NCBI RefSeq assembly: GCF_022045235.1 | Contig: NW_027266274.1 | Location: forward strand, 10,974,001-11,038,000 | Source of the DNA: Haliotis cracherodii | Lineage: Eukaryota | Length of the DNA: 64,000 nt | Direction: 5' to 3' | Position numbers and translations under genes: made by a program | Shown here: positions 1 through 59,119 of the stretch, piece by piece | How the letters are laid out: every line of letters begins with the position of its first letter | How positions within the stretch are numbered: position 1 is the first letter of the stretch | The notes under the pieces: generated by a model | Seen by the model: only the letters and a program-made list of their open reading frames with translations | The model's database searches: none | Told to the model about the DNA's origin: nothing

Positions 1-890
1 TTCGTGTACAGAGTGGCGAGTCCTGATCCTGTCTGTCAGTTCGTCTACAGAGTGGGAAGGCCTTATTGTGTCTGTTAGTTCGTGTACAGAGTGGCGAGTC
101 CTGATTGTGTCTGTTAGTTCGTCTACAGAGTGGCGAGGCCTTATTGTGTCTGTTAGTTCGTGTACAGAGAGGCGAGTCATGATTGTGTCAGTTCGTCTAC
201 AGAGTGGCGAGGCCTTATTGTGTCTGTAAGTTCGTCTACACGAGGGTCGAGTACTGATTGTGTCTGTTAGTTCGTCTACACGAGCGATGAGGTCTTGTTG
301 TGTCTGTTAGTTCTTCTACACGACCGGCAAATCCTGATTGTGTCTGTTAGTTCGTCTTCAGAGAGTTGAGTCATGATTGTGTCAGTTCGTGTTCAGAGAG
401 GCGAATCCTGATTGTGTCTGTGAGTTCGTCTATACGAGCGGCGAGGCCTGATTGTGTCTGTTAGTTCGTCTACACGAGCGGCGAGGCCTTATTGTGTCTG
501 TTACTTTATGTACAGAGAGGTGAGTCCTGACTGTCTGTTAGTTCGTCTCCAGAGAGGCGGGTCCTGATTGTGTCTGTTAGTTCGTCTATACGATCGGGGA
601 GGCCTTATTGTGCCTGTTAGTTCGTCAACAGAGTGACGAGGCCCTATCGTGTCTGTTAGTTCGTCTATACGAGGGGCGAGTTCTGATTGTGTCTGTTAAT
701 TCGTGTACAAAGATAATATGCCCAAATATGTCTGTTAGTTCGTCTACAGAGCGGCGAGGCCTGATTGTGTCTGTTAGTTCTTCTACACGAGCGGCAAATC
801 CTAATTGTGTCTGTTAGTTCGTCTTTAGAAAGGCGAATCCTGATTATGTCTGTTAGTTCTTCTACAGAGTTGCGAGGCCTGATTGTCTGC
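1..890. repeat. Degenerate minisatellite, ~39-bp unit (TTCGTCTACAGAGTGGCGAGGCCTTATTGTGTCTGTTAG)
   Basis: GTGTCTGTTAGTTCGTCTACA recurs about every 39-41 nt; the array runs off the window start. Confidence 0.92.
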
Positions 891-7729: not shown

Positions 7730-10700
7730 TGCGTGGTGTCCTGTCTGATACACGACTCCACATAGCAATACGTCATAATGGTTTTCTATCAGATACACAA
7801 CTCTACATAGCAAACAGTCAATTTGATGTCCTGTCAGGTACACGACACAACTCAGTATTCCGTCATAATGGTGTCCAGTCAGATACCCGACTCTACCTAG
7901 CAATCCGTCATTATGTTTGATTTAATAAAATACACGACTCTATATAGCAATCGGTCGTAGGGTGTCCTGACAGATACACGATTCTGCCTAGGATTCCGTC
8001 ATAATGTTTTTCTACCAGATACATGACTCTACTTAGCAATCCGTCCTAATGGTGTCCTTCGGTTACACGACTCCACCTAGCAAACAGTTATAATGGTGTC
8101 CTGTCAGATACACGACTCTACCTAGCAAACAGTTATAATGGTGTCCTGTCAGATACACGACTCTACCTACCAAAAAACAGTTATAATAGTGTCCTGTCAG
8201 ATACACGACTCTACCTAGCAAACAGTTATAATGGTGTCCTGTCAGATACACGACTCCACCTAGCAAACAGTTATAATAGTGTCCTGTCAGATACACGACT
8301 CTACCTAGCAAACAGTTATAATGGTGTCCTGTCAGATACACGACTCCAACTAGCAAACAGTTATAATAGTGTCCTGTCAGATACACGACTCTACCTAGCA
8401 AACAGTTATAATGGTGTCCTGTCAGATACATGACTCTACTTAGCAATCCGTCCTAATGGTGTCCTGTCGGATACGCGACTCCACCTAGCAAACAGTTATA
8501 ATAGTGTCCTGTCAGATACACGACTCCACCTAGCAAACAGTTATAATGGTGTCCTGTCAGATACACGACTCTACCTAGCAAACAGTTATAATGGTGTCCT
8601 GTCAGATACACGACTCCACCTAGCAAACAGTTATAATGGTGTCCTGTCAGATACACGACTCTGCCTAGCAAACACTTATAATGGTGTCCTGTCAGATACA
8701 CGACTCCACCTTGCAAACAGGTATAATTGTGTCCCGTCAGATACCCGACTCTACCTAGCAAACAGTTATAATGGTGTCCTGTCAGATACACGACTCCACC
8801 TAGCAAACAGTTATAATAGTGTCCTGTCAGATACACGACTCTACCTAGCAAACAGTTATAATAGTGTCCTGTCAGATACACGACTCCAACTAGCAAACAG
8901 TTATAATAGTGTCCCGTCAGATACACGACTCTACCTAGCAAACAGTTATAATAGTGTCCTGTCAGATACACGACTCTACCTAGCAAACAGTTATAATGGT
9001 GTCCTGTCAGATACACGACTCCACCTAGCAAACAGTTATAATAGTGTCCTGTCAGATACACGACTCTACCTAGCAAACAGTTATAATGGTGTCCTGTCAG
9101 ATACACGACTCTACCTAGCAAACAGTTATAATAGTGTCCTGTCAGATACACGACTCCAAGTAGCAAGCAGTTATAATAGTGTCCTGTCAGATACACGACT
9201 CTACCTAGCAAACAGTTATAATAGTGTCCTGTCAGATACACGACTCTACCTAGCAAACAGTTATAATGGTGTCCTGTCAGATACACGACTCCACCTAGCA
9301 AACAGTTATAATAGTGTCCTGTCAGATACACGACTCTACCTAGCAAACAGTTATACTGGTGTCCTGTCAGATACCCGACTCTACCTAGCAATCCGTCATT
9401 ATGTTTGATTTAATAAAATACACGACTCTACATAGCAATCCGTCGTAATGGTGTCCTGTCACACACACGACTCTACCTAGAAATCCGTCATTATGTTTTA
9501 TTTTATAAAATACACGACTCTATATAGCAATCCATCGTAGGGTGTCCTGACAATTACACGATTCTGCCTAGGATTCCGTCATAATGTTTTTCTACCAGAT
9601 ACATGACTCTACTTAGCAATCCGTCCTAATGGTGTCCTTCGGATACACGACTCCACCTAGCAAACAGTTATAATGGTGTCCTGTCAGATACACGACTCCA
9701 GCTAGCAAACAGTTATAATGGTGTCCTGTCAGATACACGACTCTACCTAGCAAACAGTTATAATAGTGTCCTGACAGATACACGACTCTACCTAGCAAAC
9801 AGTTATAATGGTGTCCTGTCAGATACACGACTCTACCTAGCAAACAGTTATAATAGTGTCCTGTCAGATACACGACTCTACCTAGCAAACAGTTATAATG
9901 GTGCCCTGTCAGATACACGACTCTACCTAGCAAACAGTTATAATGGTGTCCTGTCAGATACACGACTCCACCTAGCAAACAGTTATAATAGTGTCCTGTC
10001 AGATACACGACTCTACCTAGCAAACACTTATAATGGTGTCTTGTCAGATACACGACTCTACCTAGCAAACAGGTATAATGGTGTCCCGTCAGATACCCGA
10101 CTCTACCTAGCAATCCGTCATTATGTTTTATTTTATAAAATACACGACTCTATATAGCAATCCATCGTAGGGTGTCCTGACAATTACACGATTCTGCCTA
10201 GGATTCCGTCATAATGTTTTTCTACCAGATACATGACTCTACCTAGCAATCCGTCCTAATGGTGTCCTTCGGATACACGACTCCAACTAGCAAACAGTTA
10301 TAATGGTGTCCTGTCGGATACACGACTCCACCTAGCTAACAGTTTTAATGGTGTCCTGTCAGATACACGACTCTACCTAGCAAACAGTTATAATAGTGTC
10401 CTGTCAGATACACGACTCTACCTAGCAAACAGTTATAATAGTGTCCTGTCAGATACACGACTCCACCTAGCAAACAGTTATGATAGTGTCCTGTCAGATA
10501 CACGACTCTACCTAGCAAACAGTTATAATAGTGTCCTGTCAGATACACGACTCCACCTAGCAAACAGTTATAATAGTGTCCTGTCAGATACACGATTCCA
10601 CCTAGCAAACAGTTATAATGGTGTCTTGTCAGATACACGATTCCACCTTGCAAACAGTTATAATGGTGTCCTGTCAGATACACGACTCTACCTAGTAAGC

Positions 10701-11700
10701 AGTTATAATTGTGTCCTGTAAGATACACGACTCTACCTAGCAAGCAGTTATAATGGTGTCCTGTCAGATACACGACTCCACCTAGCAAACAGTTATAATA
10801 GTGTCCTGTAAGATACACGACTCTACCTAGCAAACAGTTATAATGGTGTCCTGTCAGATACACGACTCTACCTAGCAAACAGTTATAATAGTGTCCTGTC
10901 AGATACACGATTCCACCTAGCAAACAGTTATAATGGTGTCTTGTCAGATACACGATTCCACCTTGCAAACAGTTATAATGGTGTCCTGTCAGATACACGA
11001 CTCTACCTAGCAAACAGTTATAATGGTGTCCTGTCAGATACACGACTCTACCTAGCAAACAGTTATAATAGTGTCCTGTCAGATACACGACTCTACCTAG
11101 CAAACAGTTATAATAGTGTCCTGTCAGATACCCGATTCCACCTAGCAAACAGTTATAATGGTGTCTTGTCAGATACACGATTCCACCTTGCAAACAGTTA
11201 TAATGATGTCCTGTCAGATACACGACTCTACCTAGCAAGCAGTTATAATGGTGTCCTGTCAGATACCCGATTCCACCTAGCAAACAGTTATAATGGTGTC
11301 TTGTCAGATACACGATTCCACCTTGCAAACAGTTATAATGATGTCCTGTCAGATACACGACTCTACCTAGCAAGCAGTTATAATGGTGTCCTGTCAGATA
11401 CACGACTCTACCTACCAAAAAACAGTTATAATGGTGTCCTGTCAGATACACGACTCTACCTAGCAAACAGTTATAATAATGTCCTGTCAGATACACGACT
11501 CTACCTAGCAAGCAGTTATAATGGTGTCCTGTCAGATACACGACTCTACCTAGCAAACAGTTATAATAGTGTCCTGTCAGATACACGACTCTATCCAGCA
11601 AACATTCAATTTTTTTTCATAAAATACACGACTCCACATAGCAAGCAGTTGTTATTGTGTCCTGACAGATACACGAAGCTACTCTACCTAGCAGGTAGCA
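7730..11700. repeat. 45-bp minisatellite (GTCCTGTCAGATACACGACTCTACCTAGCAAACAGTTATAATGGT) with higher-order variant blocks
   Basis: About 85 units; a length divisible by 3 explains the 15-aa repeat ORFs on both strands. Confidence 0.96.
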
Positions 11701-11899
11701 GTAAATTACGACACATGGCAACTTATATGCCAGTCAAAACATGTGTCAAACGTGCGAAAGAAAACATTACGGGCGTTTATGATATATTAGGGAATAAATA
11801 TGAAAACCAACTATGAGTTGACGAGATAAGACGTAAAATGAGTCACCTGTTTCTATATCAGGTCGTGCATGCCTTTTAAGTACACAATTGTGCTTTTCG

Positions 11900-14050
11900 T
11901 GAGTAACGTGTGTCTGATCATGCATGCGATGTGCCTCCACGGGTATTCTTGTAGCATCACATGTGTTTGATCATGCATGCGATTGCCTACATGAATATGT
12001 TTGCTGAGAGTCATGTGTATCTGATCATACATACCCTTTACCTACAGGGGTGCATTTGGATTGAGTCGTGTATATCTTGAGTTTCATGTATAGCTTTACC
12101 TACACGGGTTTGGGTGCTGCAAGTTATGTGTTTCTGTTTCTGACCACATATGCCCTTTACATACACTGGTGTGCCTGCAGTGAGTTACGTGTGTCTGAAC
12201 TTGCATGCCCTTTACCTTCACTGGTTTGCGTGCAGTGAGTTATATGTGTCTAACCTTGCATGCCCTTTACCTTCACTGGTTTCCGTGCAGTTGGTTATGT
12301 GAATCTGGCCTTGCATGCCCTTTACCTTCACTGGTTTGCGTGCAGTGAGTTATGTGTGTCTGACCTTGCATGCCCGTGTAACTAGACTGGTTTGCGTGCA
12401 GTGTGGTATGCGTGTCTGACCTTGCATGCCCTGTACCTTCACTGGTTTCCGTGCAGTGAGCTATGTGTGTCTGACCTTGCATGCCATGTACCTTCACTGG
12501 TTTGCGTGCAGTGAGTTATTTGTGTCTGAACATACATGCCCTGTACCTTCACTGGTTTGCGGACAGTGAGTTATGTGTGTCTGAACATACATGCCCGTGT
12601 AGCTTCACTGGTTTGCGTACAGTGAGTTATGTGTGTCTGACCATACATGACCATGTACCTTTACTTGTTTGCGTGCAGTGAGTTATGTGTGTCTGGCCTT
12701 GCATACCCTGTACCTTCACTGGTTTGCGTGCAGTTGGTTATGTGTGCCTGGCCTTGCATGCCCTTTACCTTCACTGGTTTGCGTGCAGTGAGTTATATGT
12801 GTCTGGCCTTGCATGCCCTTTACCTTCAATGGTTTGCGTGCAGTGAGTTATATGTGTCTGACCTTGCATGCCCTTTACCCTCACTGGTTTGCGTGCAGTG
12901 AGTTATGTGTGTCTGACCTTGCATGCCCTGTACCTTCACTGGTTTGCGTGCAGTGAGTTATGCGTGTCTGACCTTGCATGCCCTGTACCTTTATTGGTTT
13001 GCGTGCAGTGAGTTATGTGTGTCTGACCTTGCATGCCCTGTATCTACACTGGTTTGCATGCAGTGAGTTATGCGTGTCTGACCTTGTATATCCTGTACCT
13101 ACACTGGTTTGCGTGCAGTGAGTTATGTGTGTCTGACCTTGCATGCCCATGTACCTACACTGGTTTGCATGCAGTGAGTTATGCGTGTCTGACCTTGTAT
13201 ATCCTGTACCTACACTGGTTTGCGTGCAGTGAGTTATGTGTCTGACCAGTTATGCCCATGTACCTACACTGGTTTGCGTGCAGTTAGTTATGCGTGTCTG
13301 ACCTTGCATGCCCTGTACCTTTACTGGTTTGCTTGAAGTGAGTTATGTGTGTCTGACCTTGCATGCCCTGTATCTACACTGGTTTGCGTACAGTGAGTTA
13401 TGTGTGTCTGACCTTGCATGCCCTGTACCTTCATTGGTTTGCGTGCAGTGAGTTATGTGTATCTGACCTTGCATGCCCATGTACCTACACTGGTTTGCGT
13501 GCAGTTAGTTATGTGTGTCTGACCTTGCATGCCCTGTACCTTCATTGGTTTGCGTGCAGTGAGTTATGTGTCTGATCAGTTATGCCCATGTACCTTCACT
13601 GGTTTGCGTGCAGTGAGTTATGTGTGTCTGACCTTGCATGCCGTGTTTCTATACTGGTTTGCGTGCAGTGAGTTATGTGTGTCTGACCTTGCATGCCCTG
13701 TACCTTCATTGGTTTGCGTGCAGTGAGTTATGTGTATCTGACCTTGCATGCCCATGTACCTACACTGGTTTGCGTGCAGTTAGTTATGTGTGTCTGGCCT
13801 TGCATGCCTTGTTTCTATACTGGTTTGCGTGCAGTGAGTTATGTGTGTCTGACCTTGCATGCCCTGTACCTTCATTGGTTTGGGTGCAGTGAGTTATATG
13901 TATCTGACCTTGCATGCCCTGTACCTACACTGGTTTGCGTGCAGTTAGTTATGTGTGTCTGGCCTTGCATGCCCTTTACCTACACTGGTTTTTGTGCAGT
14001 GAGTTATGTGTGTCTGAACATACATGCCCATTACCTACACGGGTTTGCTT
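11900..14050. repeat. 55-bp minisatellite (CTGGTTTGCGTGCAGTGAGTTATGTGTGTCTGACCTTGCATGCCCTGTACCTTCA)
   Basis: About 35 homogeneous units from ~12150; degenerate units towards 11900. Confidence 0.95.
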
Positions 14051-14567
14051 GCATTTTTTTTTATGACTCCACACCGGGACTACCGTGTATTTTGTCTACT
14101 TGGCAGTTAATATGAACATTACATGTAACATCTAGCCTGCGCCTGTAAATCTAATCTTTTGTTAAACCAAATATTTAAGCTATAAATACTACCAAAGACA
14201 AACGTAACAATGACCCTGTACTTACTTATATATTGTGATGCTGTAGAAGTAACCCAAAACAAGTGTACTAGTGTTTAATGTGTCTATGTCAGATTTAAAT
14301 TGAAACAAAATTGAAAAATGTCCTAAACGCATTACAAATAGCATCAAGACACCCCAACCTGCCTTGTTTTCCTATATTAAGATGAAGTAAATTGAAATGA
14401 TTGCAGTTAAATTTGTCTTTGAGTATAATGCATAACATTTTCGACCATCTATCAAAAATATATGCTGCCATTGTACGCACACCGTACACCACTAAGATAT
14501 ACGAAACTGCTGTTTACACGCCATTGTTTGGTGGCGGTTAAAAAATATCTAAACAAGACATGGTAAG

Positions 14568-15064: not shown

Positions 15065-17130
15065 AAGACATGGTAAGTTAATGGTGATGCATTTCAAACG
15101 GGCATCATAGTCGTGCTACGTTAGCAGGATTTCGTCGACAATTTTCATCCTAGTGACCTTTTTTCAAAGTTTGTAATTGTTTGGTCAATTCCAATTTTCA
15201 AATGCATGCTTTGTTTGGCCCCCTAGTTAACATAAGTACTATCAGACCATCCAACTGCAACCATGTGTGCAGTATCTTACAGTACGTTTGTTGAGAACCA
15301 CGCGTATTCAAAAGTATATTTTGTAACATATTCAGCAATGTCCAATAATCTTTAAAGTAATAAATCGGTTTAAAAAATGCAACATTCAATAAACATAACA
15401 TATCATGCACTTACTTATACACAGAGGCAGACTTCACCTGGTATCACCACTGTATGAAAGTAAAGCATAAACACATATTCATGATATAGTCGGAATCGTA
15501 CAATCGACTCTGCTGTTAGAAGAAACTTCTTATCGTGGGGCGGTTAAGGTTAAATTTGTGCACTTTGAGTTGAAAGCACCAAACTTGGCACAATTATACA
15601 TTGAACAATTCCGAACATTTCTGGATGTAGTATATAATTCAAATCTAATATGCAGCGCCCACTGGTGGCGAAGAAAATCCAAGATTGCCGCCAAAATGAC
15701 TTAATCTTCAATAAATGTCGACTCTGCTGTTGGAAGAAACCTCTTATGATTTCTATCTATAAGCGTAAGTAAACGTCCAAGAAAGTATGATGTGAAAAAT
15801 TGAATCAGAATGAGCGTCCATGTATGAATTTTACTTTTGAATTTATTTTGCATTTTGATATAAAAAATATGTATGTATGTATCTGTGTAAGGTTTATAAA
15901 TTGTATACCGTTGCATTATAAACGGTTCACATAAAATATCAGATGAAAAACTCTGATCATGAATATCCGACACTACACAAGATATGTATATAAGTCAATA
16001 GACACATACAATTTTGAAACCTCAATTATAAGCTTATAATGTAATTTAAATATAAACAAAACATGCGGAATTCGTTCGTCCCATCAGTTCGGTTCTCAAG
16101 AAGTATATCGTAATGGGCTAAACGGTTCACATAAAATATCAATTGAAAAACAATTGCACCTCTGAGTGTCCCACATTTTATAAAATGTTTATAGATGTGA
16201 ACAGACATATATACAATTATATTCATAACAATAAGCTTATAATGTCATTTATTTATCCTCAAAATATGCGTGTTCTACTTGTCATATGAGAAATTATTGA
16301 GATTTAATTATTGATAGTACTCTGAGCCGACAATGGATACGACTCAGGGAAGTACCTTTCAACAAGGATTCCTTTGACATGAAATGTTTACAGATGAGAT
16401 ATTAACTGTTTATGATACCTTCATATTCATATCACGTTGTTTCAACGCTAAGCGTGGAGCAAAAAGAGTCACAAACGACAGGGAAACTATTTTGCCGCGG
16501 GCTTATTGATAGCTTCAGCGAAGAGAAGTGACAAGACTCGCGGAGTAATATGTCTGTTTACTACCACGCATGCCCAGAGGCGAATAAAATACCGGTCTCG
16601 GCGTGCAAGCATTCATCATGGGTTAGGTCGGCTTAGCTTTATGTCACCACGTGACTACGTAGAGGACAAGTTGGTAGACTTTATTACAAGAACGGGGTCT
16701 AAACGTCTCCTTTAATCTTTTAACTTATAAAACCGTTTATTCATAATTGTATGTCGCGAAGCTGTTTTACAAACATGAATGTTTGTCGTTTGTCAAGGGC
16801 GTCCACAAAGACTGCATTGTTGAAATGACAATCAAGTTTTGTTTCAACAGATTACTTATTCGAAACATATTCAATTTATGTTAGGGCCATAACACACTGT
16901 TTTTAAATGAAAAGTGACAAGCATTAGAATCAATGTTAAACTTCAAGTGAATGGTTTTGAAGATGAAAAAGGTTAAATTTAAGCACTAACTAGGAAGACT
17001 CACCATTGGCGAAAGCTAAAATATGAAGAGAAATTTAGTCACTGTGCAGTGGGTTAATAATATTATAAAGGCAAAAACTGTGCAGGGTTTAAGTCTGTAG
17101 TGTATCTTTGTATTGACGCTGACGGAGCTA

Positions 17131-17201
17131 CTGCGATCACGGATCTTGGGAAATCCACATTAGAATGTAAGTGTGGAGTCCCCACGGTCCGCGCCCACAA
17201 C
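17131..17201 (-). ncRNA. mir-1986: pre-miRNA, miR-1986 family, downstream copy (mature 3p arm 17136-17157)
   Basis: Minus strand folds into a ~70-nt hairpin; the 3' arm UGGAUUUCCCAAGAUCCGUGAU is identical in the second copy while loop and star arm differ; matches the recalled mollusc miR-1986 mature sequence. Confidence 0.8.
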
Positions 17202-17220
17202 CACCGACCTTCTTCATCTG

Positions 17221-17234
17221 TGACGTCACTTCCG
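17221..17234 (-). promoter_or_regulatory. ETS-CRE composite motif (CGGAAGTGACGTCA) just 5' of the miR-1986 hairpin
   Basis: Exact motif conserved at the same offset in both copies (also 18235-18249). Confidence 0.45.
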
Positions 17235-17854
17235 CTAAGGGGGTCTCCGTGATAAGAGTTTTAATGTGCAAACATGCGTGCGAGTGAAATTGTGCAAACG
17301 TATAACTTATTTGGTGTTGGAAAGTCAGTTTCATCAAAGTTGTGCACTTTTGATTAAGTTATTCGTGAATGTGCAAGACATTTTATCAAACTTGGAATGT
17401 ACTGTTTAATTGAATAGTTTCACGAAGAAGCTAGTGCATTTCGCTCATTTACGCTGATATTAGTTCCTGTTATATAACTTTCTTAAATTAAATCGCCAAA
17501 AGGCTATGGTAATCGTGCTTTACTAGTAAAATAGAGAGACGAGGATACAGTGAAACTATCAAAGCAACGTGTGCGTGCAATCATTCCGGTGCGTGTTTGA
17601 TTTATTTTGCGTGAAACCAAGAGTGCGTTCCTGACCCAAAAAACAAATGGAAAACGAATTTGCTCATGGTTTATAACCACAAACACGAGTGTAAGTACAG
17701 AGTTACAAATGTGCAAAGTGAGTGATTGAGTGACCTTTTACTTTGAAACAATACCCCTACTGCAGTGTACCCCTAAGTTGACAGTGCAAGAGTATTTCAG
17801 TGAGTAAGTTCCTTTGCTTAAATGACTCAATTGTTAACATATTAAACTTGGTCT

Positions 17855-17933
17855 TGTCGCTATATGGCTGAAATAATGCCGATGCGACGTTAAATTTTAA
17901 CTCACTCACTCACTCACTCACTCACTCACTCAC
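17855..17933 (+). mobile_element. Short LINE 3'-tail insertion with (ACTC)n
   Basis: TATGGCTGAAATAATGCCGATGCGACGTTAAATTTTAACTCACTC... Confidence 0.65.
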
Positions 17934-18136
17934 CCCAGTGAGTAAGTTGACTGTAACGTCGCATTCAATATCATTTCATTAAAAGCACGGCGTTACTTGA
18001 CTTGTTGTTATTAAAATGATATTAAAAGGTATACATACACTCACCAAATTGTGTACCTGAATATTTCGTTTTATTGTTTTATTTTGGGTAAAGAGATAGT
18101 GATGAGTCGCTGTTGGTCTTGCAATGTTTGACGTAG

Positions 18137-18222
18137 GCGGCGACATTGCGATCACGGATCTTGGGAAATCCACTGTCAAATAGACTGTGGCGCCCCCACG
18201 ACCCGCGCCCACAACCACCGAC
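18137..18222 (-). ncRNA. mir-1986: pre-miRNA, miR-1986 family, upstream copy (mature 3p arm 18151-18172)
   Basis: Hairpin GCGCGGGUCGUGGGGGCGCCAC-loop-GUGGAUUUCCCAAGAUCCGUGAUCGC, with extended basal stem CGGUGGUUGUGG/UCGCAAUGUCGCCG. Confidence 0.85.
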
Positions 18223-18234
18223 CATCTTCTTCTG

Positions 18235-18249
18235 TGACGTCACTTCCGG
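18235..18249 (-). promoter_or_regulatory. ETS-CRE composite motif (CCGGAAGTGACGTCA)
   Basis: TGACGTCACTTCCGG on the plus strand; duplicated at 17221. Confidence 0.45.
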
Positions 18250-18497
18250 GAAATAGAATGCTTACAAACAATTTCTTTCAAAAATGCATACTGAAAACTG
18301 TTAACAGTTAATAATGTTTGTACAAGTATATTTGAAAGAAATATTTCATGAGAGTAGAATGTACAATTATGGAAACAAATATTTAACTCAGCTTGGAAAC
18401 TTTGAGAAAAGGACACCGGGGTGGTGCTGCCACTGGGTCGTGACATCTTCATCACGGGATGTTTTGTTGCCACGTTGTAGTTGTAGTTGCCACGGAC

Positions 18498-18570
18498 TGC
18501 ACGAGCAAGTAGTTGACGTAGTCCCGGGATTATAGACAACCTGGGACCCCATCAACTTACTGCACGTACA
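18498..18570 (-). ncRNA. mir-1990: pre-miRNA, miR-1990 (5p arm 18540-18561, 3p arm 18505-18526)
   Basis: Hairpin AGUAAGUUGAUGGGGUCCCAGG-loop-CGGGACUACGUCAACUACUUGC with basal stem UGUACG/CGUGCA; both arms match recalled miR-1990 sequences. Confidence 0.87.
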
Positions 18571-20000
18571 ACCCAAATATCGCTGGAATGACGTGGACTG
18601 ACGCCACTGGGACGATGTCTTTTTAGAGTCCTGAAACAAGATTGATATCAATAACACTTGCTGCAGCAATGAAGGTGAAACAGTTAATACCCTACAGCAC
18701 CAAGACACGTGGTATCATAATATTGTTAAGTGCTTATTAAGAAATGTACCAGGCGAATTATGAGGACAAACACCAAAAGTTTCTCAACAAAGTCTGAGAG
18801 AGGCTAAGCACGTCCGACCATGTCTAACCACACGGGAAAAGGACGCGGTCTCGTAGCCTCTCGTCGGAAGACGAGATCACGTTAATGTATGAGCGACAAG
18901 ATTAATATTCTAGCTTTCGGTGCCGGAGGGAAAATGGAGGCAGTTCAAATAATAAAAGCGGGCGACATTTGATGGGATGGGTTTGTGTCCCTCGGGCCTG
19001 CGCAGAGTGTCTCCTCGCAACAGAGGGCGCATTAATCATGCCAGGAAAGAGGCCGCGGACGCGAATTTAAATTTTAAATTTTGGTTACGCTTTTGACTTA
19101 GATTCGCCTCAGTTTTCATATTCGTAAGATATCGAAGATTTATTTTTAAAATATGAATAAGTGCAAGGTGAATTGCAATGCCATTTCAAAATGCATATTT
19201 ACTAATATAATTATTTATAACTGATATTATTTTAAATGGATTACATTAATCTAAAACATAATTTGATATCATTTCACCAAACTATTTATATTTTGCCCAT
19301 GTATGATGAATACTGTGTTTCAAATCTGTACAATAAATATAAATATGCCTCCAAAGGCGATATTAAGAGATATTCATCGATAGAGTAAAATATCTTCAAG
19401 CGATGTAACCATAGAAACAATGACTTGGAGATATAGATAACCTTCCTATACATATCTCAGTGTCCCCATTATTGCTATGCGATGTACGGCATTTAGTTTT
19501 ACGTATACGCATGGGTGCAGTTTGCTAGTCGATGAGCCTTTGGCTGTGTCCTGTCTTTCCCACAAAGATAGCGATCTTTGACATCACTGTATCAATATGC
19601 TACTGTTTCAAGCATGTTTATAGTTGATATTCTGTTCTCATTTATGACATATTAAACATAGATTTTGTAAATGAAAATATACCTATCAAATGATGAACAA
19701 TTTATTAAATGAAAATGTATTTTAGAACGAATCAAACACACTTTTAGCAGTATTTATGTATTTAATCATATATCATTCCATCTATGTATTCTATAGCTGC
19801 GAGTAGATGCAATATCGCTGGTGCAGCTAAAAACAATATTAACTCATTTTAAATATATCCGAAATATTATTCTGTGAAGTTATTAAACCTCTAATACTTG
19901 ATATGTAATCGGTATCCCCATATATAAAGTTAGAATGTGGTCATAGGCTCGGAGCTATGTAGAAATACATGATACTAAAAGTATCTACAAAATGAAATAC

Positions 20001-28113: not shown

Positions 28114-28769
28114 AACACAAGCAGTGAGCAGTACATGGCAATGCTAGACTAGCGTATCTGTAATAAAACTTAAATAGATAAAATAATCGCCTGATCGTGT
28201 AAACTCAGCTTATATGCGTCACGCCTTGAAATCAGCATTTTTCGCTGTGGATACTTGAAGTGCACCGCAATCTCTGTGCACGGCCCTTCCCGATCCTGCA
28301 TAAGTGCTTCAACTAGCGACGCCTACTGTGCATTCTACAGCGACACACCTGACACACGTGGCACATTTCATTCTTTTCTTCTTGCTGAAGGTCAAAGGTT
28401 AGCTCAACATCTCCTTACACAAACCCGTTTTGCCATATTTATTACTTGATATCTACATGAAGACACAGAGATTTGATGACTTCCGCAACAGTATGAATAT
28501 GTGGCCTGTCTAACTTGAATAACGCATTCACATGATAAACGTTCGGCCAAAACGACTTTTGAAAATCTTGAGTAATTTTTGACAGGGTGGCATCCCTCCA
28601 TTGCTCCAAGCCACAATATTCGCTCTACGTGGTCGTTTCATTTAGGCATCGTAGGATCGGGCCGAGTTCGAATTCCGGATATATCCTTTGTATGGTTTAA
28701 ACTGCAGCTTATTCCTTGTTCACGCCATCAGACGTGACGTATCAGCATACATAACACGGCAGTCCGGTA

Positions 28770-30420
28770 GATAGAACTGTATCTTGCATACGCAAGACTT
28801 AATGTAACTGGTTGTAACTTACCTTGCATACTCTACACAGTATGCCGGTAAATGGAACTTTATCTTGCATACATTACACAATATGCCAGTGGGTAGACCT
28901 GTACCTTGCATACACAGTATGCCAATGGTTTGAGAAGTAAGTTGCATACTCTACACAATATGTTTGCGGGTGGAACTGTATCTTGCATACTCTACATAAT
29001 ATGTATGTCTTTGGGTTGAGCTGTAGCTTGCATACTCTACACTGTATACCTGTGGATGGAGCCGTACCTTGCATACTCTACACAGTATGCCAGTGGGTGG
29101 AGCCAATTTTGCATACTCTACACAGTATGCCTGTGGGTGGAGCCAATCTTGTATACTCTATACCGTATGCCTGTGGGTGGAGCCATTCTTGCATACTCTA
29201 TACCGTATGCCTGTGGGTGGAGCCTCTCTTGCATACCCTACACCGTATGCCTGTCGGTGGGGCCATTCTTGCATACTCTACACAATATGCCAGTGGGTGG
29301 AACTGTACCTTGCATATATAACACAATATGCCAGTGGGTGGAACTGTACCTTGCATACACAACACATTATAGCAGTGAGTGGAACTGTACCTTGCATACA
29401 CAACACAATATGCCAGTGGGTGGAACTGTACCTTGCATACACAACACAATATGCCAGTGGGTGGAACTGTACCTAGCATACACAACCCAATATGCCAGTG
29501 GGTGGAACTGTACCTTGCATACACAACACAATATGCGAGTGGGTGGAACTGTACCTTGCATACACAACACAATATGCCAGTGGGTGGAACTGTACCTTGC
29601 ATACACCACACAATATATCAGTGAGTGGAACTGTTCCTTGCATACACAACACATTATGCCAGTGGGTGGAACTGTACCTTGCATACACAACACAATATGC
29701 CAGTGGGTGGAACTGTACCTTGCATACACAACACAATATGCCAGTGGGTGGAACTGTACCTAGCATACACAACACATTATAGCAGTGAATGGAACTGTAC
29801 CTTGCATATACAACACAATATGCCAGTGGGTGGAACTGTACCTAGCATACACAACACATTATAGCAGTGAATGGAACTGTACCTTGCATATACAACACAA
29901 TATGCCAGTGGGTGGAACTGTATCTTGCATACACAACACAATATAGCAGTGAGTGGAACTGTTCCTTGCATACACAACACATTATGCCAGTGGGTGAAAC
30001 TGTACCTTGCATACATAACACAATATGCCAGTGGGTGGAACTGTACCTTGCATACACAACACAATATGCCAGTGGGTGGAACTGTACCTTGCATACACAA
30101 CACAATATGCCAGTGGGTGGAACTGTACCTAGCATACACAACACAATATGCCAGTGGGTGGAACTGTACCTTGCATACACAACACATTATAGCAGTGAAT
30201 GGAACTGTACCTTGCATTACACAACACAATATGCCAGTGGGTGGAACTGTACCTTGCATACATAACACAATATGCCAGTGGGTGGAACTGTACCTTGCAT
30301 ACACAACACAATATGCCAGTGGGTGGAACTGTATCTTGCATGTATGATACAAATATTGCACATGGTGGTTGGTGGAGCTGCAACTTGCATACCTATATAC
30401 AATGTCAGTGGGAAGAACCG
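28770..30420. repeat. 41-bp minisatellite (CCTTGCATACACAACACAATATGCCAGTGGGTGGAACTGTA) with 43-bp and left-end variants
   Basis: About 38 units; homogeneous core 29270-30340, degenerate edges. Confidence 0.95.
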
Positions 30421-30639
30421 TACGTTACATGTGAACAGTTGACCTGCTTCTGTAAGGTGTTTGTGAGAATCGTACAGGATTCGATCACATTTATCTATTT
30501 CATAATTCATAAATCATGCTTATGAAAAAGCTGGAATCGACAGTGAAATCTGCTATTGGTGGAGAATTCTTATGAGTATGAAATTGTTTTGTTGCTTTTA
30601 TTTACATATTATTATTATTATTTGCTGATTAAATAAATG

Positions 30640-40946: not shown

Positions 40947-41840
40947 ATAAGAATTTGGCATCACCTTGGACTTTCACAACAAGCAGATGCAGAGTTGCGT
41001 ACCTTTGAAGTGTCATGATCCTAAGATCGTTCAAATCCCCTATACATCCTCATTATTTGCACCTGTAATTTTGAATAACGTTTATGAAATGGCTTAAGTT
41101 TAGGAAACTGAAACTGTATGGGAAACTGTCTGAGAATATTACTTGAATTTAAAAGTATCAATTCTCTTGTCTGCAAATTTCAAATTTAGAAACATTCTTT
41201 TTTTCGAATTAGTTAAGTTTTCTGATTTGGCCACACGATTTATAGCAATATCAAAACAACATACTCTCTAGTCGATACTGTAGGCTCTCAGTTTGGGGAC
41301 CCATCCATCATCAATAGTTGCTAGAGTTACTGAACTTTTTCAACGTCACAGTTGAGTCTGGTTCTTACTTTGTGCAATCCCGATGGTTCCTGAAGGAGAG
41401 GCAAGACATCTTCCAAATCAATAGTATAATTTGTGAAGTCTTTTATGTTTTCATTCCGACCATATGTCATTGTTCATGACTGTCGAGTACAATTATTCGT
41501 TCGGAACATCCTTAAAGGTCAATTTCAATTAATGCTACTTAGATGGTAGACACAATCGGAAAACTGTCCTTTGATGCCCAATGGGGTCGATAACTTGTGC
41601 TGTGTCTCTCCAACTTATATCAATCAACACAGGGTACACTTATTGCCATAGATGACGTGCCAAGTTTGACAAGCCTTCAAAACATCTTAAGCAGTGTATA
41701 TTCAGTCTAAAGAACGGCTCCGCTATCAATATATTTAACAAAATAAATAATCGATGCACTCAACTCTTAGTTTAACTAAAAGCCCAAGCCGGTTGTCGTT
41801 GCAGAAAGCTGTTCGTGAGGAAAGACGTGTTTTAACAATC

Positions 41841-42330
41841 ATGATCAGAAGAGAAATTCCACTGCTTTTATTGATAACTTGTGGTGGGTTTCATCTTGTT
41901 AGAAGTTCTGTTTGTGGTAAATGCCAGGTAGAGCCCTTCCCTTCATTCCAGAACAAGAGAGTAAGTGGTGGTGTTCTGTGGACGAAAACACTGACCAGTC
42001 GTGCCGAATGTGCGGCGCTCTGCAACAGCTTCATGGTCATCAGGTCCTTCGGCTACAAGGACAGCAGTGGAGAATGCGTGGCATACACCGTACCTCTCAC
42101 CCCACCACCACCAGCAACACCACCACCAGCAACAACAACAACACCACCACTACTACCACCACCACTACCACCACCACCACCACCAGAAACACCACCACCA
42201 CTACCACCACCACTACCACCACCAGAAACACTACCACCACCAGCAGCAACAACACCACCAGCAACAACACCACCAGCAACTACCTATGTCAGTGAATCAG
42301 GATTCAACATGTATTCCACCTGTGCACAAG
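41841..42330 (+). CDS. Exon 1 of secreted PAN-EB-PAN protein: signal peptide plus PAN/apple domain with Pro/Thr-rich insertion
   Basis: ATG at 41841 (MIRREIPLLLLITCGGFHLVRS); ECAALC...SFGY...GEC pattern; phase-1 donor CAAG|GTAACG. Confidence 0.85.
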
Positions 42331-42480
42331 GTAACGGGAACCCAGACAAATGTTACTGAGACTTACTCATCATGGTCAGCTTGATTACAGTTAACAAAGA
42401 CCCAATTACACCGTACCAGCATATGATATGCATATTGTATTCCTATAAGTAAATAGGACAAACTACGTAATCTTGTACAC

Positions 42481-43850: not shown

Positions 43851-44689
43851 TATTAAACCTAGCCACATAATTAAATGTTAGGAGATAAACCTCTTCTGTT
43901 ATAAATGCGTTGACGGGAGGTTTCAAATTTAACATTAATCGGTGTTTAATCAACGATGAACCACCTCCCAATTTAAGAACTGAATAGGTTTATTTCCATT
44001 CTACCATGATTAACATACGTTTTTTGTAAAAACACGGATTTGTTTTGGGTACGTTGTCAGTGCAGTGATTATCTGCAGAAGTGGTTATCACTCATTTACC
44101 ACTTCAAATTTAACAAATTAACCATTCAAATTAGATCATCCTTCAGTGTCATGGTAGAATTTTGCTTTACCCAAGCTCGCGTTTATTTTTGTCACACAGA
44201 TAACGATTCTGTCTTTCAGTGTTGAACTTACCACTGAAACGTCATTGGTTGGGCATTCACCAATTCAATCAGAGGCAGTCATATCTACAATTAACAAATA
44301 CACACTGCTGCATTTAACAAGTGCATTTTTATCGCTTAACGGGACTCTGTGTTTGAACAGGTCCATTATACACCCAGGCTTGCCATAGGAGCGAACTAAT
44401 GTGGATCGTTCCAGCATTGCGCACCGAAGGCGAGGAAAATGTATAATCTTAATACTAATAAACATGTTTATGGCTTATCTTTTATGCTTGAATCGAGTGC
44501 CACTCGTTTAGTCACCAACTGTTCCCTCAACATGTCAATATGTCATTACGACGCTTGGAGTGTTATGTATTCCATACTGCAAATAAATATATCCATTTAA
44601 AGATTCAAAGATATTGATTAAAGACTATGTATCTATTGCGCGCCACCTCTGCAATTCAATTAAGAACAACCACTATTTATATTCTTCAG

Positions 44690-44809
44690 CCAACCATTTC
44701 GGTTCCTGTGTCAACTCTACGGACTGCTCTGATGAAAAGACTACTTGTAATGATGGGCTGTGTGTGTGTAACATCACGTACGTGTCCTCCCAAGGCAACT
44801 GTGTTCAAG
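44690..44809 (+). CDS. Exon 2: 6-Cys EB/EGF-like module
   Basis: Acceptor TTCTTCAG|CC and donor CAAG|GTAGGT, both phase 1; NHFGSCVNSTDCSDEKTTCNDGLCVCNITYVSSQGNCVQ. Confidence 0.88.
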
Positions 44810-45020
44810 GTAGGTCGAGGCTCTGCAATATCTCTGAAACATCAAACCCGACGTTGCTTTAGCTTACATATTGTATCGATCATCATAGTAGCATCTAAGG
44901 TTTATATACCCGATTTTGTGTAATACACTATGTTATGTTTAACACATGACATACATACCAATTGTTTGGCACAGTTTGCATATCAAGTCTTTGAAGGGCA
45001 TTTAGAAGTAATACACATAG

Positions 45021-46102: not shown

Positions 46103-46426
46103 TTCAGCACGAACAGCATGTTCAGCGAAAATAGTGTTGTTGATGTTGTTATTGTTATTGTTGTTATAAATTATATTTTTCTGGAACATTTTTTTTAATT
46201 AATCCCTTATAAGAAAGAAATATATATATAACTGTTGGTTTCGTCGAAGTCCAAAGAGTAGGTATTGACATTCGTTGAAGTATTAGTTAACACAATTGGC
46301 AAGAATAAATAATAAGCATTCGTTTTTGCCGAAGAATCAAGTTACCAAGTAACATAAACAGCTTTACCTAATGACTAATCGCTCTCTGCTGTGTCAGTGT
46401 GACTCACATAACACTTTTATTCACAG

Positions 46427-46689
46427 GTTGTTCTACATATGGTTCGGGAGTCACTACATTCAAAAACAGGAACCTTAATGGATACAACACCAAGATTGTA
46501 CACAACATCACAACGATAGACGCATGTATAGATTTATGCTTGACCGAGAGAGATTTCCTGTGTCTGACAGCGGATTTCGGGCTTTCATTAAGCAGGTGCA
46601 TCCTCTGCAGCTGGGCTTGGAATGATGTCCCATCAGAGCACCAAATAGTCTCTACCACATTCGATCAAATCATCCGTAATTGTGCTTAA
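46427..46689 (+). CDS. Exon 3: PAN/apple domain and stop (joined CDS 873 nt, 290 aa)
   Basis: Acceptor TTTTATTCACAG|GT in phase 1; DACIDLCLTERDFLCLTADF...RCILC; TAA at 46687-46689. Confidence 0.88.
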
Positions 46690-55125: not shown

Positions 55126-55699
55126 CTGGAAGGGGACTATGTGGAGTAATAAATGAAAAACATCAACTTGGTACGGGTCTTTCACAGTTAGGCTTAGAAC
55201 TTTTCAGCCAGCCCTCGTATATCGACATTTTAGTTCTTTCTACCACCTCAACAGCAAACGTCTCAAACCATGCGATGTTGATAAACCAGTTGTATTTTGA
55301 TATGACACTACTGAGTTAATTCAGTTGAGAAGATGTTCAGTAAATACCGTAAAAGGCGACTATACTTGTCGTAAGAGGCGACTAACGGGATCGGGTGGAA
55401 TAATCCCGCGCAAGCATCATGCCGCCTTTTGTTACAGTCCATCATTCGAGCACAGTCCCTCTTCAAGTACACACGCGTGTCACTGTATCTAATCGCTTTC
55501 GCTTTGTACGTTTCCTTTGTACCCAGTCGCGACCGTTTCGCCGATTACGCTTTGAATACCATCTATTTCAACACTCGCAGTATCGCATTTACACAATCGC
55601 GACCGTTTCGCCGATTACGCTTTGAATAACATCTATTTCAGCACTCGCCGTATCGCATTTATTCCGTTCTACTCCCGAACTTCATCCTCGGGACATTTT

Positions 55700-56846
55700 T
55701 ACACTTGTGGAATACCAACTCACCACCTCGACCTTTCGTGATTCTCCCAGAGAAGAGCAGCCGTCAACCACAAGCTTGTGAGGGGAGCCAAGCAGGCCAG
55801 GACAACCAGAAGACAAACCCCGGGAGTACACATTATGCAGGAGGCAACAGCTGATGGTGAGTCTGCCAATTACGGAAATATCGAAGGTGGCAACACAATT
55901 AACGTGCAATCGGCGCAGCTTGTAAATGCCGCGCAGGCTGCCAACTCGGCTACCCAGGTAAACGATACTCCAAAAATACTCCACTTGCTGGAACATTCAG
56001 CGCCCGGCCCGGTTAGCGCAAACCAACAGGTAAGGCTTGGTTTTAGTTCTCCCGCCATTTCGCCCAACATAGTTGGTGACGCGGTTTGGCCAGCCAATCA
56101 GAACGCAGGATACGGGGATTCCCTATCCTTCCGTGCGGATGGAATAGACGCACACGTCAAACAACAGGCTTGGGAAAAAATCTGGCGTGGCGAGTTTGTC
56201 GACCTGGGCACAATCCTACCAAACACCGAGGGAAGTCACGAGGACGGTACGATTACAATGGCGTACGACTCCTCAGGTAAGATAATTTTTAAACCAATAA
56301 AGCAGCAACCAAAGCGCCTGTTACCTGGCAAGCTGGACTTCAGCTTTCCACATTTTCATGTATATCTATGTTAGTAGGCACTCCGAGGTCCGCAAAACCC
56401 AGGGGTTGCCGTCCTACATGGAAACCATAAGAACGGCGGCACTTCGTTTCGGGGGGGCCTGGTCAACGTCCAACAATTCCGACACAGAATGTCAAGGGCC
56501 CCTCACGTCGCTGGGACAACATTGACGGAGAGTTGTGGCTGAAGTACATGGTCACACAACCGGTACGACAACCAGAATCAGGCGGACGGGGCGCAATGAC
56601 ACGCTACAGGGGGACATCGCCAGTCAGGTATGCTGGGATTTCAATACATTTGGGTGGAGCAGGGTCAACTGTAAGTACACTCACAAATGCGGTAAGTGTG
56701 GCAAACATTCTCACAGCTCTAGGACCTGCTTCCGAGGGAATCGGGCCCAACCGACCCCATACCAGCCCAATCAGCCTTTCCCTAACAGAAAACCAGCCGT
56801 CAAGGCAGGTAAATTCAATGGCCCCTTCCCCCGTGGATCTCAATGA
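55700..56846 (+). pseudogene. gag-like ORF of the YR retrotransposon (frameshifted)
   Basis: KIWRGEFVDL; WDNIDGELWLKYM; Cys/His cluster CWDFN...CKYTHKCGKCGKHSHSSRTC. Confidence 0.7.
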
Positions 56847-58161
56847 AATGGCACCCTGGTTACGCCAATATGCTAGGGTCAATTACAGAGATGCAAATTA
56901 TTTATGGGTCGGTTTAAGCTTTGGCTTTAAGCTCGAGTTCTAGGGAAGCCGCACGGTTCGCCTGGCACGAAACTTGCGATCAACCACGCACCTGTCTAAG
57001 ACACGGCAGGCTACGTGAAACAAAAACTACAAAAGGAAGTCGACCTTGGCCCCTTCAAGGACACCCCCCTGGACAACCTCTAAGTATCGAAGAAGCAGCC
57101 AGGCTATGGTCAGCATCTGGGTAAGCATGCGGAGGAATTCCGTCTAATTCACCATCTATCCTATCCCAGGGGTAAACCTATAAATGACTTCATAGACACA
57201 GAGGCCTGATCCGTTGTGTATGCCAGATTTGATGAAGCTATGCATATGGTTCAACAACTGAGAAAGGGAGCACTACTAGCAAAATTCGACATTCAGTCGC
57301 CCTTTAGAATTATACCAGTCCACCCATCTGATTTCGAGTTGCTAGAGTTCTATTTCGATGAATGCTTACCATTTGGCTGCTCCATATATCTTGCGCCATA
57401 TTTGAAACGTTTAGTACCTTCTTGCAATCACATCTTCCAACGTGTCAGATCATGCATTACCTGGATGACTTCCTAACGGAGGGGGAGGGGGGGCACAGCA
57501 GGGACCAGCCACTGCCCAGACAACCTCAACGGATGCGTGAATACACTAGAACAGCTTGGGGTCCCTATTGCGCATGACAAGACGTTGCAAAGGTAAGCAA
57601 CCATTTCACCACATTAGGATTACCAGCTGGGTCAAGGAAGACCTACAAATGTGGTTAACATTTCTTATGAGTTATAACGGCATTTCAGTGTTTCAGGACC
57701 AACTATGGGTAGACAGCGATTTCCTCCAGCTGTTTTCAGACGCAGCGGGTGGTGCAGGCATGCAGGGCAAATGGTTTAACGGCGCATGGCCAACCCAGTG
57801 GGTGATGGATGGAACTACACGGGACTTGACGCTCCTGGAGCTGTTCCCCATCACACTGGCCATCCAACTTTGGGGCAAGCAACTCGCAAACAAAAAGGTC
57901 CTCTTTTACTGCGACAACCAAGCCGTCATAGCAATAATCAACAAACAGTCGACCAAGGCCCCCAAAGTGATGAGCCTACTCCATCGCCTAATCCTGCAGT
58001 GCCTCCAATATAATATTATGTTTAAGGCAAAGTATGTATGTTCCACTGCTAACACTATTGCCGATGCTCTCTCGAGGTTTCAGCTCAAATGCTTCCGAGA
58101 GGCAGCACCAGCCCCGGACCAGAACCCAACACCTATCCCGTGCAACATATGGCTGATCTGA
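56818..58161 (+). pseudogene. Reverse transcriptase-RNase H of the YR retrotransposon
   Basis: FRLIHHLSYP; LAKFDIQSPFRIIPVHP; LPFGC; HYLDDFL; FSDAAG; ELFPI; FYCDNQAV; NTIADALSR. Confidence 0.9.
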
Positions 58162-59055
58162 GGCAGGAAGCCGGCAGACTCCTACAACAGTCTCTGTCTA
58201 CAAATACATGGGCCACTTACCAAACAGGCATCAATGCCTTGCACCAGTTCCGGTCCTCACACCAGCTACAAGAGGTGTGGCCAGTCCCGCTGGATCAGGT
58301 CGTAAACTTATTGCTTATCTGTCAGTCACTCACCACTCCCCTAACACAGTCAAGACTTACATTGCAGCGCTGTTTTCACAGCACTAATTCCACGGGCTCA
58401 CCGACTGTACAGACCATTTCCTGGTGGGCAAGATTTTAACAGGCTTAGACAAATCAGCGGGCCGACCAGACACCAGAAAACCGATCACTGCAGATATGCT
58501 GCAGGTCGTAACCAACAATCTGCCTCACGTATGCTTATCAGCATATGAAGCCAGACTGTTCAAGGCAGTCTACTACACAGCCTTCTTCGGTTTCTTTAGG
58601 GTTAGCAAACTGGTCCAAACTGGACCCTCCAAAACAGGTTGCGCCATCCAGAATTTAAGCTTCTCGGGTAACCCCAAGTAGCTTTCAATCCATCTACCAC
58701 ACTCAAAGTCTGATCAGTACAGGATGGGGACAAGAGTTACAATGTCATCTATACCATGTTATCCGCTATATTCGGTAGTCGCCATCAAGCACTACCTGGA
58801 GGCACGCCCCTCCGGCCCACAACATGCATTCATTTATTTCGACCATTCCCCCATTACAAGGTACCAATTCCAGGCACTCCTAAAAAAGGCCTTAGCACAC
58901 AGCAACATAAACACGGCTTGCTATTCTTCGCATTGCTCCTTCCGCATTTGGGCAGCCACATCAGCAGCCATGAACAGGGTGCCAGAACACCTCATACAAC
59001 AATACGGCAGGTGGAAATCAGATTGCTACAATGCTTACATGCGCTTACCAAAATT
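58149..59055 (+). pseudogene. Tyrosine recombinase of the YR retrotransposon
   Basis: RKPIT; AFFGFFRVS; SKSDQ; SSH.SFRIWAAT; GRWKSDCYNAYMR. Confidence 0.9.
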
Positions 59056-59119
59056 CGATGTTGCACAATTAATTCAAATAGTCTTTCATGGTACTTACTA
59101 CAATTCTTATTGTTTACAG

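What the first reader, a model, noticed from the sequence alone, without database searches (positions are those of the whole stretch)
17131..18570. miR-1990/miR-1986 cluster with a duplicated miR-1986 hairpin
Seen: three minus-strand hairpins. The two miR-1986 copies are ~1015 bp apart, share an identical 22-nt 3p arm, and have different loops and substituted star arms that largely keep pairing; their flanks are otherwise unalignable. That is the signature of purifying selection on both copies. No second miR-1990 lies at the equivalent position. Established (from memory): miR-1986 is a mollusc miRNA and miR-1990 a lophotrochozoan one. Inference: a lineage-specific dosage increase, possibly with different star-strand seeds. 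The ORF track does not show this locus.
Basis: partly seen in the sequence, partly recalled or inferred. Interest (0 to 1): 0.7.

Follow-up and report, generated by a model that had tools for sequence, protein, structure and literature searches.

The report
Abalone miR-1986 duplicate with ETS-CRE motif
This is a known microRNA pair (miR-1990 and miR-1986) in an abalone that carries a second, likely working copy of miR-1986, and both copies sit 41 bases behind the same perfect ETS-CRE transcription-factor motif, which likely acts as a local on-switch but is untested.

Summary
Confirmed: mir-1990 (18501-18567) and two mir-1986 hairpins (18151-18210, 17136-17196), all on the minus strand and above Rfam cut-off. 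These are the only copies found in the genome. The miR-1990/miR-1986 cluster is an ancient, published lophotrochozoan cluster; miR-1986 is not mollusc-specific. The duplicate is already in print as unremarked data: a red-abalone miRDeep2 table lists both precursors, letter-identical, under the wrong name 'miR-876'. Their copy-specific star ends look read-derived, so both are likely processed.

The 41 nt upstream are 39/41 identical, while the loop and 3' flank are each 6/13. The shared block starts exactly at a perfect 16-nt ETS-CRE motif. Selection on a DNA cis-element is my best reading; gene conversion is the main rival.

Against a promoter role: the motif is absent in two other animals' miR-1986 loci and is mostly repeat-borne in this genome (33 of 40 sampled sites). 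No reads could be laid. The scan's index showed no earlier look-alike. An ordinary microRNA duplication with one testable twist; interest 0.3.

The parts
18501..18567 (-). mir-1990 hairpin (5p arm 18540-18561, 3p arm 18505-18526)
   Evidence: Rfam RF03684, 72.5 bits; precursor identical by eye to the H. rufescens row in PMC11067994 Table S1-3; single match in genome
18234..18249 (-). ETS-CRE composite 16-mer, copy A (C variant), -42..-27 from the inferred 5' Drosha cut
   Evidence: motif defined in PMC3464117 passages and PMC4555227 abstract start
18208..18233 (-). conserved 5' flank and lower stem of copy A (24/26 identical to copy B)
18151..18207 (-). pre-mir-1986 copy A: star 18186-18207, mature 3p 18151-18172; ancestral-type star seed
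   Evidence: RF03753, 91 bits; 2-nt overhang geometry; H. rufescens row
18128..18133 (-). conserved 3' hexamer with a CNNC motif at +18 (copy A)
   Evidence: motif role from PMC11701709 passages
18039..18044 (-). consensus 5' splice-donor-like site 106 nt after copy A (untested)
17830..17933 (.). dispersed repeat fragment with a (GTGA)n microsatellite between the copies
17220..17235 (-). ETS-CRE composite 16-mer, copy B (G variant), same offset as in copy A
17194..17219 (-). conserved 5' flank and lower stem of copy B
17136..17193 (-). pre-mir-1986 copy B: star 17172-17193 (derived seed), mature 3p 17136-17157
   Evidence: RF03753, 64.8 bits; H. rufescens row with the B-specific star
17113..17118 (-). 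conserved 3' hexamer with a CNNC motif at +18 (copy B)
16998..17003 (-). consensus 5' splice-donor-like site 132 nt after copy B (untested)

Best explanation
This is the lophotrochozoan miR-1990/miR-1986 cluster with a likely old tandem duplicate of miR-1986 so far seen only in abalone; both copies are likely cut by Drosha and Dicer to the same 3p microRNA, and the identical ETS-CRE motif 41 nt upstream of each is likely a DNA cis-element kept by selection. Shown: family identity, two copies, identical mature arm, kept pairing, a CNNC motif at +18 in both, and the motif at the same offset in both. From print: both precursors are called by miRDeep2 in red abalone. Inferred: both copies are processed (about 0.85); the benefit is miR-1986-3p dosage; an ETS factor plus a CREB/ATF dimer binds the motif and drives or boosts transcription through each hairpin (about 0.6 that it is a selected DNA element, about 0.3 that it is a promoter with its own start site).
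For: Rfam hits. Divergence map: -41..-14 is 26/28, the loop 6/13, +5..+17 6/13 (Fisher p=0.002, post hoc), and the outer flanks are at background, so the duplication is old yet the non-pairing 5' flank is kept. Conservation stops at the motif's first base, where A has C and B has G, the two bases the published motif allows. The 16-mer occurs 337 times in 1.18 Gb, so the chance of one within 50 nt upstream of a given locus is about 7e-6. Expected in window shuffles: 0.03. The upstream flanks are single-copy, not repeat relics, and in-register flank identity to 43 other sites is at most 12/30. In the H. rufescens rows the stars start 2 nt earlier than a structure-predicted star would, whereas rows mapped on the Pomacea genome start where predicted; A and B stars differ at 4 of the first 17 nt, so reads cannot cross-map (miRDeep2's observed-versus-expected star rule is recalled). 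A donor-like site follows both copies; there are 13 such sites in 128 kb of both strands (post hoc).
Against: No RNA, start-site or chromatin data were seen. The motif is absent, even with 2 mismatches, from both outgroup loci L021 and L022. In this genome 33 of 40 hand-picked sites fall in four repeat families, and 2 of the 7 singletons lie inside open frames with Pfam hits; none was shown to be a host promoter. The conserved tract (-41 to star position 5, 44/46) is contiguous, as a gene-conversion tract would be. The donor-like sites have no significant flanking homology (832 of 2000 shuffles score as well), and L022 has none. ETS-CRE binding is shown for mammalian proteins only. Read counts per star were not in the rows seen.
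Confidence: 0.6

Rival explanations
1. Ordinary dosage duplicate; the 5' flank is alike because a gene-conversion tract of about 46 nt homogenised it, and the ETS-CRE motif is a passenger.
For: One contiguous 44/46 tract running into the star arm. No motif in the outgroups. The motif is common in this genome's repeats and also turns up inside coding frames.
Against: The tract edge coincides with the motif's first base. The copies offer only a 27-nt perfect match outside the tract. Conversion does not explain why a word found once per 3.5 Mb sits here at all.
Confidence: 0.2
2. The conserved 5' flank acts at the RNA level: it is a binding site for a processing factor, or its UGACGU pairs with the conserved 3' (A/G)CGUCA and extends the stem over the CNNC motif.
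For: The helix is possible in both copies (U-A in A, U-G in B) and reaches probability about 0.85 in the shortest fold of A.
Against: The probability falls to 0.01 or less once 60 nt or more of flank is included, and is only 0.17 for B at best. It does not explain the ETS half. CNNC alone accounts for the 3' hexamer.
Confidence: 0.12
3. The motif was donated by a mobile element (a Polinton-like terminal repeat or another repeat) and exapted before the duplication.
For: The 18-mer shared by A and B occurs 153 times, with many of the 100 listed places in inverted pairs about 8-12 kb apart. Three such elements examined have terminal inverted repeats of 525-565 nt, and the two scanned encode protein-primed PolB. 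Copy B matches one repeat family over 21 nt.
Against: No homology beyond the motif (at most 12/30 in register). The upstream flanks are single-copy. This rival concerns origin only and is compatible with the best explanation.
Confidence: 0.1
4. Copy B is kept for a new star-strand seed rather than for dosage.
For: B's star seed is derived: A matches the oyster, mussel and ark-shell rows. Platynereis uses the 5p arm of Mir-1986 (1409 against 400 reads).
Against: The mature 3p arm is invariant, and it is the arm called mature in all 9 rows seen. The star seed also varies in the outgroups L021 and L022.
Confidence: 0.08

Closest known systems
Mir-1990_Mir-1986 cluster of Lophotrochozoa (PMC12257675 supplementary files 3-5; rows and file 4 part 9 read)
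   Same: Same families, order, strand and short spacing (354 nt here; 268-1434 nt in Lottia, Crassostrea, Lingula, Nautilus and Platynereis); same 3p seed GGAUUUC.
   Different: Those species are listed with one Mir-1986; here there are two in tandem.
H. rufescens 'miR-876' rows, Scaffold_72 (PMC11067994 Table S1-3; rows read)
   Same: All three precursors are letter-identical by eye, in the same order and on the same strand.
   Different: Misnamed there and not discussed (no '1986' in the main text). Spacing is 988 and 360 nt against 1014 and 354 nt here, so this is another Haliotis species or haplotype.
Mammalian ETS-CRE composite motif bound by GABPalpha and CREB (PMC3464117, passages; PMC4555227, abstract start)
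   Same: Exact 16-mer; the C and G first-base variants are both present.
   Different: Described for mammalian regulatory regions. Here it lies before a mollusc microRNA, and most sampled genomic copies are in repeats. Binding is untested.
TSS-derived capped pre-miRNAs such as miR-320 (PMC6009592, search listing only; details recalled)
   Same: 3p-dominant microRNA with a promoter-like motif right upstream.
   Different: The lower stem, the CNNC motif and a star end at the 2-nt-overhang position point to ordinary Drosha cleavage.

Membership tests
MIR-1986 (Rfam RF03753) | Covariance-model score above the gathering cut-off (50 bits) | tested here: met
   91 and 64.8 bits
MIR-1986 (Rfam RF03753) | Mature 3p sequence with seed GGAUUUC | tested here: met
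   Both copies equal the printed hru/hdh/bgl-miR-1986 sequence
MIR-1990 (Rfam RF03684) | Score above cut-off (63 bits) and both arms equal to the printed arms | tested here: met
   72.5 bits; arms as
Canonical animal microRNA | Hairpin with 22-nt arms, 2-nt 3' overhangs and at least 16 arm-to-arm pairs | tested here: met
   Expected star:mature pairs 16.6 (A) and 16.3-16.4 (B); folds
Canonical animal microRNA | Reads from both arms with sharp 5' ends, per copy | tested here: inconclusive
   No reads were seen here; the printed H. rufescens star ends fit read-derived stars for both copies (inference)
Canonical animal microRNA | Processing motifs (CNNC, basal UG) | tested here: inconclusive
   CNNC at +18 in A and B and at +16 in mir-1990; no UG at -14/-13 in A or B (the expected offsets are recalled)
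ETS-CRE promoter element | Exact overlap (C/G)CGGAAGTGACGTCAC | tested here: met
ETS-CRE promoter element | Lies in open chromatin near a transcription start and is bound by ETS and bZIP factors | not testable with these tools
   No RNA or chromatin data were available
ETS-CRE promoter element | Conserved at the orthologous position in other species | tested here: inconclusive
   Absent in 2 of 2 distant loci; no other Haliotis flank could be read
Capped (Drosha-independent) pre-miRNA | Transcription start equals the hairpin 5' end; no Drosha-defined star | tested here: inconclusive
   The lower stem, CNNC and printed star starts argue against it; no start-site data

The most novel reading that the evidence does not exclude
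In abalone each miR-1986 copy is its own small RNA-polymerase-II gene inside the ancient cluster: an ETS-CRE promoter, a start site about 26 nt before the hairpin, the hairpin in a short first exon, and a splice donor 106-132 nt behind it. This would uncouple miR-1986 from miR-1990 and put it under ETS/cAMP control, and would show the mammalian ETS-CRE code at work in a mollusc, possibly borrowed from Polinton terminal repeats.
Probability: 0.25. Interest if true: 0.55.

Novelty: new variant of a known kind. Interest (0 to 1): 0.3.

Why it matters
A tandem microRNA duplicate is common, and this one is already visible in a published table, though misnamed. What would matter is the upstream element. 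It is a natural two-copy footprint of a cis-element right beside a microRNA hairpin, so it gives a cheap test of whether one member of a 500-million-year-old cluster (age recalled) gained its own promoter in one lineage, and of whether the ETS-CRE code works outside vertebrates. Its cluster partner miR-1990 is reported as mantle-enriched in molluscs (PMC4138081 and PMC11067994 passages), so separate control of miR-1986 could bear on shell biology; that link is speculative.

Tried and rejected
Sequencing runs: one search (window 17960-18620, library word PACBIO); none was listed, so no reads could be laid; this is no evidence either way. Prokaryote genome scan for the mature arm: 0 matches. A second mir-1990 or a third mir-1986: none among the scored candidates. 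Larger duplication unit: rejected; spacer and outer flanks align no better than shuffles (154 and 80 of 200 shuffles score as well). Repeat relic upstream of either copy: none found. Long-range RNA helix: unstable in context. Host-promoter test of the 7 single-copy motif sites: 2 of 104 frames hit Pfam, both being frames that contain the motif; uninformative to mildly negative. The bacterial promoter scan is irrelevant to this organism. The outgroup hairpin model R1 has no match in the window (best E 0.33). Literature: 'miR-1986' gave 10 papers (9 listed); with 'miR-1990', 2; paralogue names, only the B. glabrata paper; the motif string, 13 papers (12 listed), none on molluscs by title. None of the listings or passages seen discusses the duplicate or the motif at this locus. 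MirGeneDB 3.0 includes H. rufescens with 83 genes and may list both copies; its entries, the Deroceras supplement and the B. glabrata supplements were not seen and could bear on novelty. H. discus hannai has a second entry (novel_105) with the same mature arm plus one base; without coordinates this is inconclusive. The PMC11989308 supplement had no arm sequences.

Full report
Observation. An Rfam scan of the whole window gives exactly three hits above cut-off, all on the minus strand: mir-1990 at 18501-18567 (72.5 bits) and mir-1986 at 18151-18210 (copy A, 91 bits) and 17136-17196 (copy B, 64.8 bits). The hairpins fold better than shuffles (z -4.1, -3.8, -2.3). Searches of the 1.18-Gb genome return two mir-1986 matches and one mir-1990 match, all at this locus (only the best candidates are scored). 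The mature 3p arms are identical and 1015 nt apart. The stars are 18/22 identical: two changes swap G-U for A-U, one gains a pair and one loses a pair.

The flanks are not unalignable. The shared block runs from 18249 to 18128 in A and from 17235 to 17113 in B. Measured from the inferred Drosha cuts: -42..-27 is 15/16 identical, -26..-14 11/13, -13..-1 13/13, the star 18/22, the loop 6/13, the mature arm 22/22, +1..+4 4/4, +5..+17 6/13 and +18..+23 6/6. Beyond that, identity is background (19/58 upstream, 11/37 downstream). The 3' hexamer holds a CNNC motif at +18 in both copies, a known Microprocessor motif (PMC11701709 passages; the usual offset is recalled). Positions -2..-8 pair in both copies. 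Positions -41..-14 lie outside the lower stem yet are 26/28 identical, against 6/13 for +5..+17 (Fisher p=0.002, chosen after the fact).

The upstream motif. The block begins exactly at (C/G)CGGAAGTGACGTCAC, the overlapping ETS-CRE motif bound by GABPalpha and CREB in mammals (PMC3464117 passages; PMC4555227 abstract start). A has C and B has G at the one degenerate position. These are the only two matches in the window, even with 2 mismatches (0.03 expected). Genome-wide the 16-mer occurs 337 times against 1 for the reversed control. I picked 40 sites by hand from the first 100 listed, avoiding obvious inverted pairs and tandem runs. Of these, 33 fall in four repeat families and 7 are single; 2 of the 7 lie in open frames with Pfam hits (ZIP transporter, rhodopsin-type receptor), and none was shown to be a host promoter. 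The longer 18-mer shared by A and B occurs 153 times, often in the terminal repeats of Polinton-like elements. The flanks of A and B, however, are single-copy and match none of 43 other sites beyond 12/30. At this density the chance of a site within 50 nt upstream of a given locus is about 7e-6. A consensus splice donor also follows A (+106), B (+132) and outgroup L021 (+188) but not L022; there are 13 such sites in the window's 128 kb of both strands, and the donor surroundings do not align. This is suggestive only.

Other animals. A metagenome scan for the mature arm gave two loci of unidentified animals, L021 and L022. Each holds one mir-1986 hairpin (40.2 and 31.8 bits, below cut-off), no second copy in 3.4 and 4.2 kb and no ETS-CRE motif. 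The Platynereis genome paper's supplements (rows of files 2-5 and part 9 of file 4 read) call MIR-1986 and MIR-1990 lophotrochozoan, describe a conserved cluster, and list one Mir-1986 for Lottia, Crassostrea, Lingula, Capitella, Platynereis and Nautilus. So miR-1986 is not mollusc-specific, and the cluster is known.

The duplicate is in print as data. Table S1 of PMC11067994 has 9 rows with the miR-1986 arm, all named 'miR-876'. H. rufescens has two rows 988 nt apart, letter-identical by eye to A and B, and its miR-1990 row is also identical. The window is therefore an abalone close to, but spaced differently from, that assembly. Mytilus has two rows on different scaffolds, each with its own miR-1990 and the same hairpin (probably haplotypes); the five other species with a row have one each, and none was seen for M. 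yessoensis. With a 20-nt mature arm, a structure-predicted star would start at star position 3, as in the rows mapped on the Pomacea genome. Both H. rufescens stars start at position 1, the 2-nt-overhang position of the 22-nt mature arm, and they differ from each other at 4 of the first 17 nt. If miRDeep2 reports the observed star when reads exist (recalled), both copies are processed. No read counts were seen. The main text never names miR-1986.

How it most likely works. Shown: two intact miR-1986 hairpins with one mature product and kept processing features. Inferred: the duplication is old, since loop and outer flanks have decayed; it post-dates the split from Lottia; and it is kept for miR-1986-3p dosage. 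Star A carries the seed seen in oyster, mussel and ark shell, while B's is derived, but the 3p arm is the called mature arm in all 9 rows, so a new star function is a minor option. For the 5' flank I put about 0.6 on a selected DNA element, because an old duplicate keeps 26/28 non-pairing bases with no indel and the conservation ends on the motif's first base. Gene conversion gets about 0.2, an RNA-level role about 0.12 (the possible helix vanishes in context). A repeat origin of the motif is possible but unsupported. Whether the element is a promoter with its own start site or an enhancer within one cluster transcript cannot be told; no expression data could be laid.

Novelty. The cluster and families are known; the second copy is tabulated but misnamed, and may be in MirGeneDB 3.0, which includes H. 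rufescens (entries not seen). The searches showed no listing or passage on the duplicate or on the motif at this locus; most subscription papers and several supplements were out of reach. The scan's own index gave no look-alike in other genomes and no note holding all search words. Verdict: a real, largely ordinary microRNA duplication with one new and cheaply testable regulatory feature; interest 0.3.

Noticed in passing
L021:1370-1448 (+) and L022:3427-3504 (-): Conserved bulged hairpin about 500-600 nt upstream of mir-1986 in both metagenome loci: 54 identical columns of 83, with 2 of 22 pairs changed on both sides. Weak folding z (-1.8, -1.0), no Rfam hit, not found in the PMC11067994 table, no match in the window. 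Possibly an unnamed structured RNA.
   Followed up: partly
G000:C2:4059500-4073500, C4:20794500-20808500, C16:6184500-6198500 (L013-L018): Polinton/adintovirus-like elements of about 11-12 kb with terminal inverted repeats of 525-565 nt; two of three show exact AGTAGT ends with 6-bp target duplications, and the two scanned encode protein-primed PolB, PF03175. Their terminal repeats carry ETS-CRE and words resembling YY1, NRF1, E-box and CCAAT sites (motif names recalled).
   Followed up: partly
L023-L062 (G000 contigs C1-C6): At least four dispersed repeat families carry a perfect ETS-CRE 16-mer (17, 9, 5 and 2 of 40 sampled sites); two of the families were not identified.
   Followed up: no
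window 1-886, 7734-11700, 11860-14056, 28745-30430: Long tandem arrays that account for many spurious open frames.
   Followed up: no
window 55500-59700: GC-richer stretch with frames that look by eye like remnants of a DIRS-type retroelement (label recalled, not tested).
   Followed up: no
window 41751-42359, 44618-44923, 46375-46689 (+): Probable exons of a gene with a PAN domain (PF00024, E 1e-4, in the last frame; no hit in the other two) and a Pro/Thr-rich linker.
   Followed up: partly
window 18590-18610 and 18800-19100 (-): CRE-like words just upstream of mir-1990 and a CpG-rich stretch (observed/expected 1.3-1.6) that could be the cluster's main promoter; a possible splice acceptor near 18631 (by eye).
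   Followed up: no
PMC11067994 Table S1: All 9 rows carrying the miR-1986 arm are named 'miR-876', so name searches miss them.
   Followed up: yes
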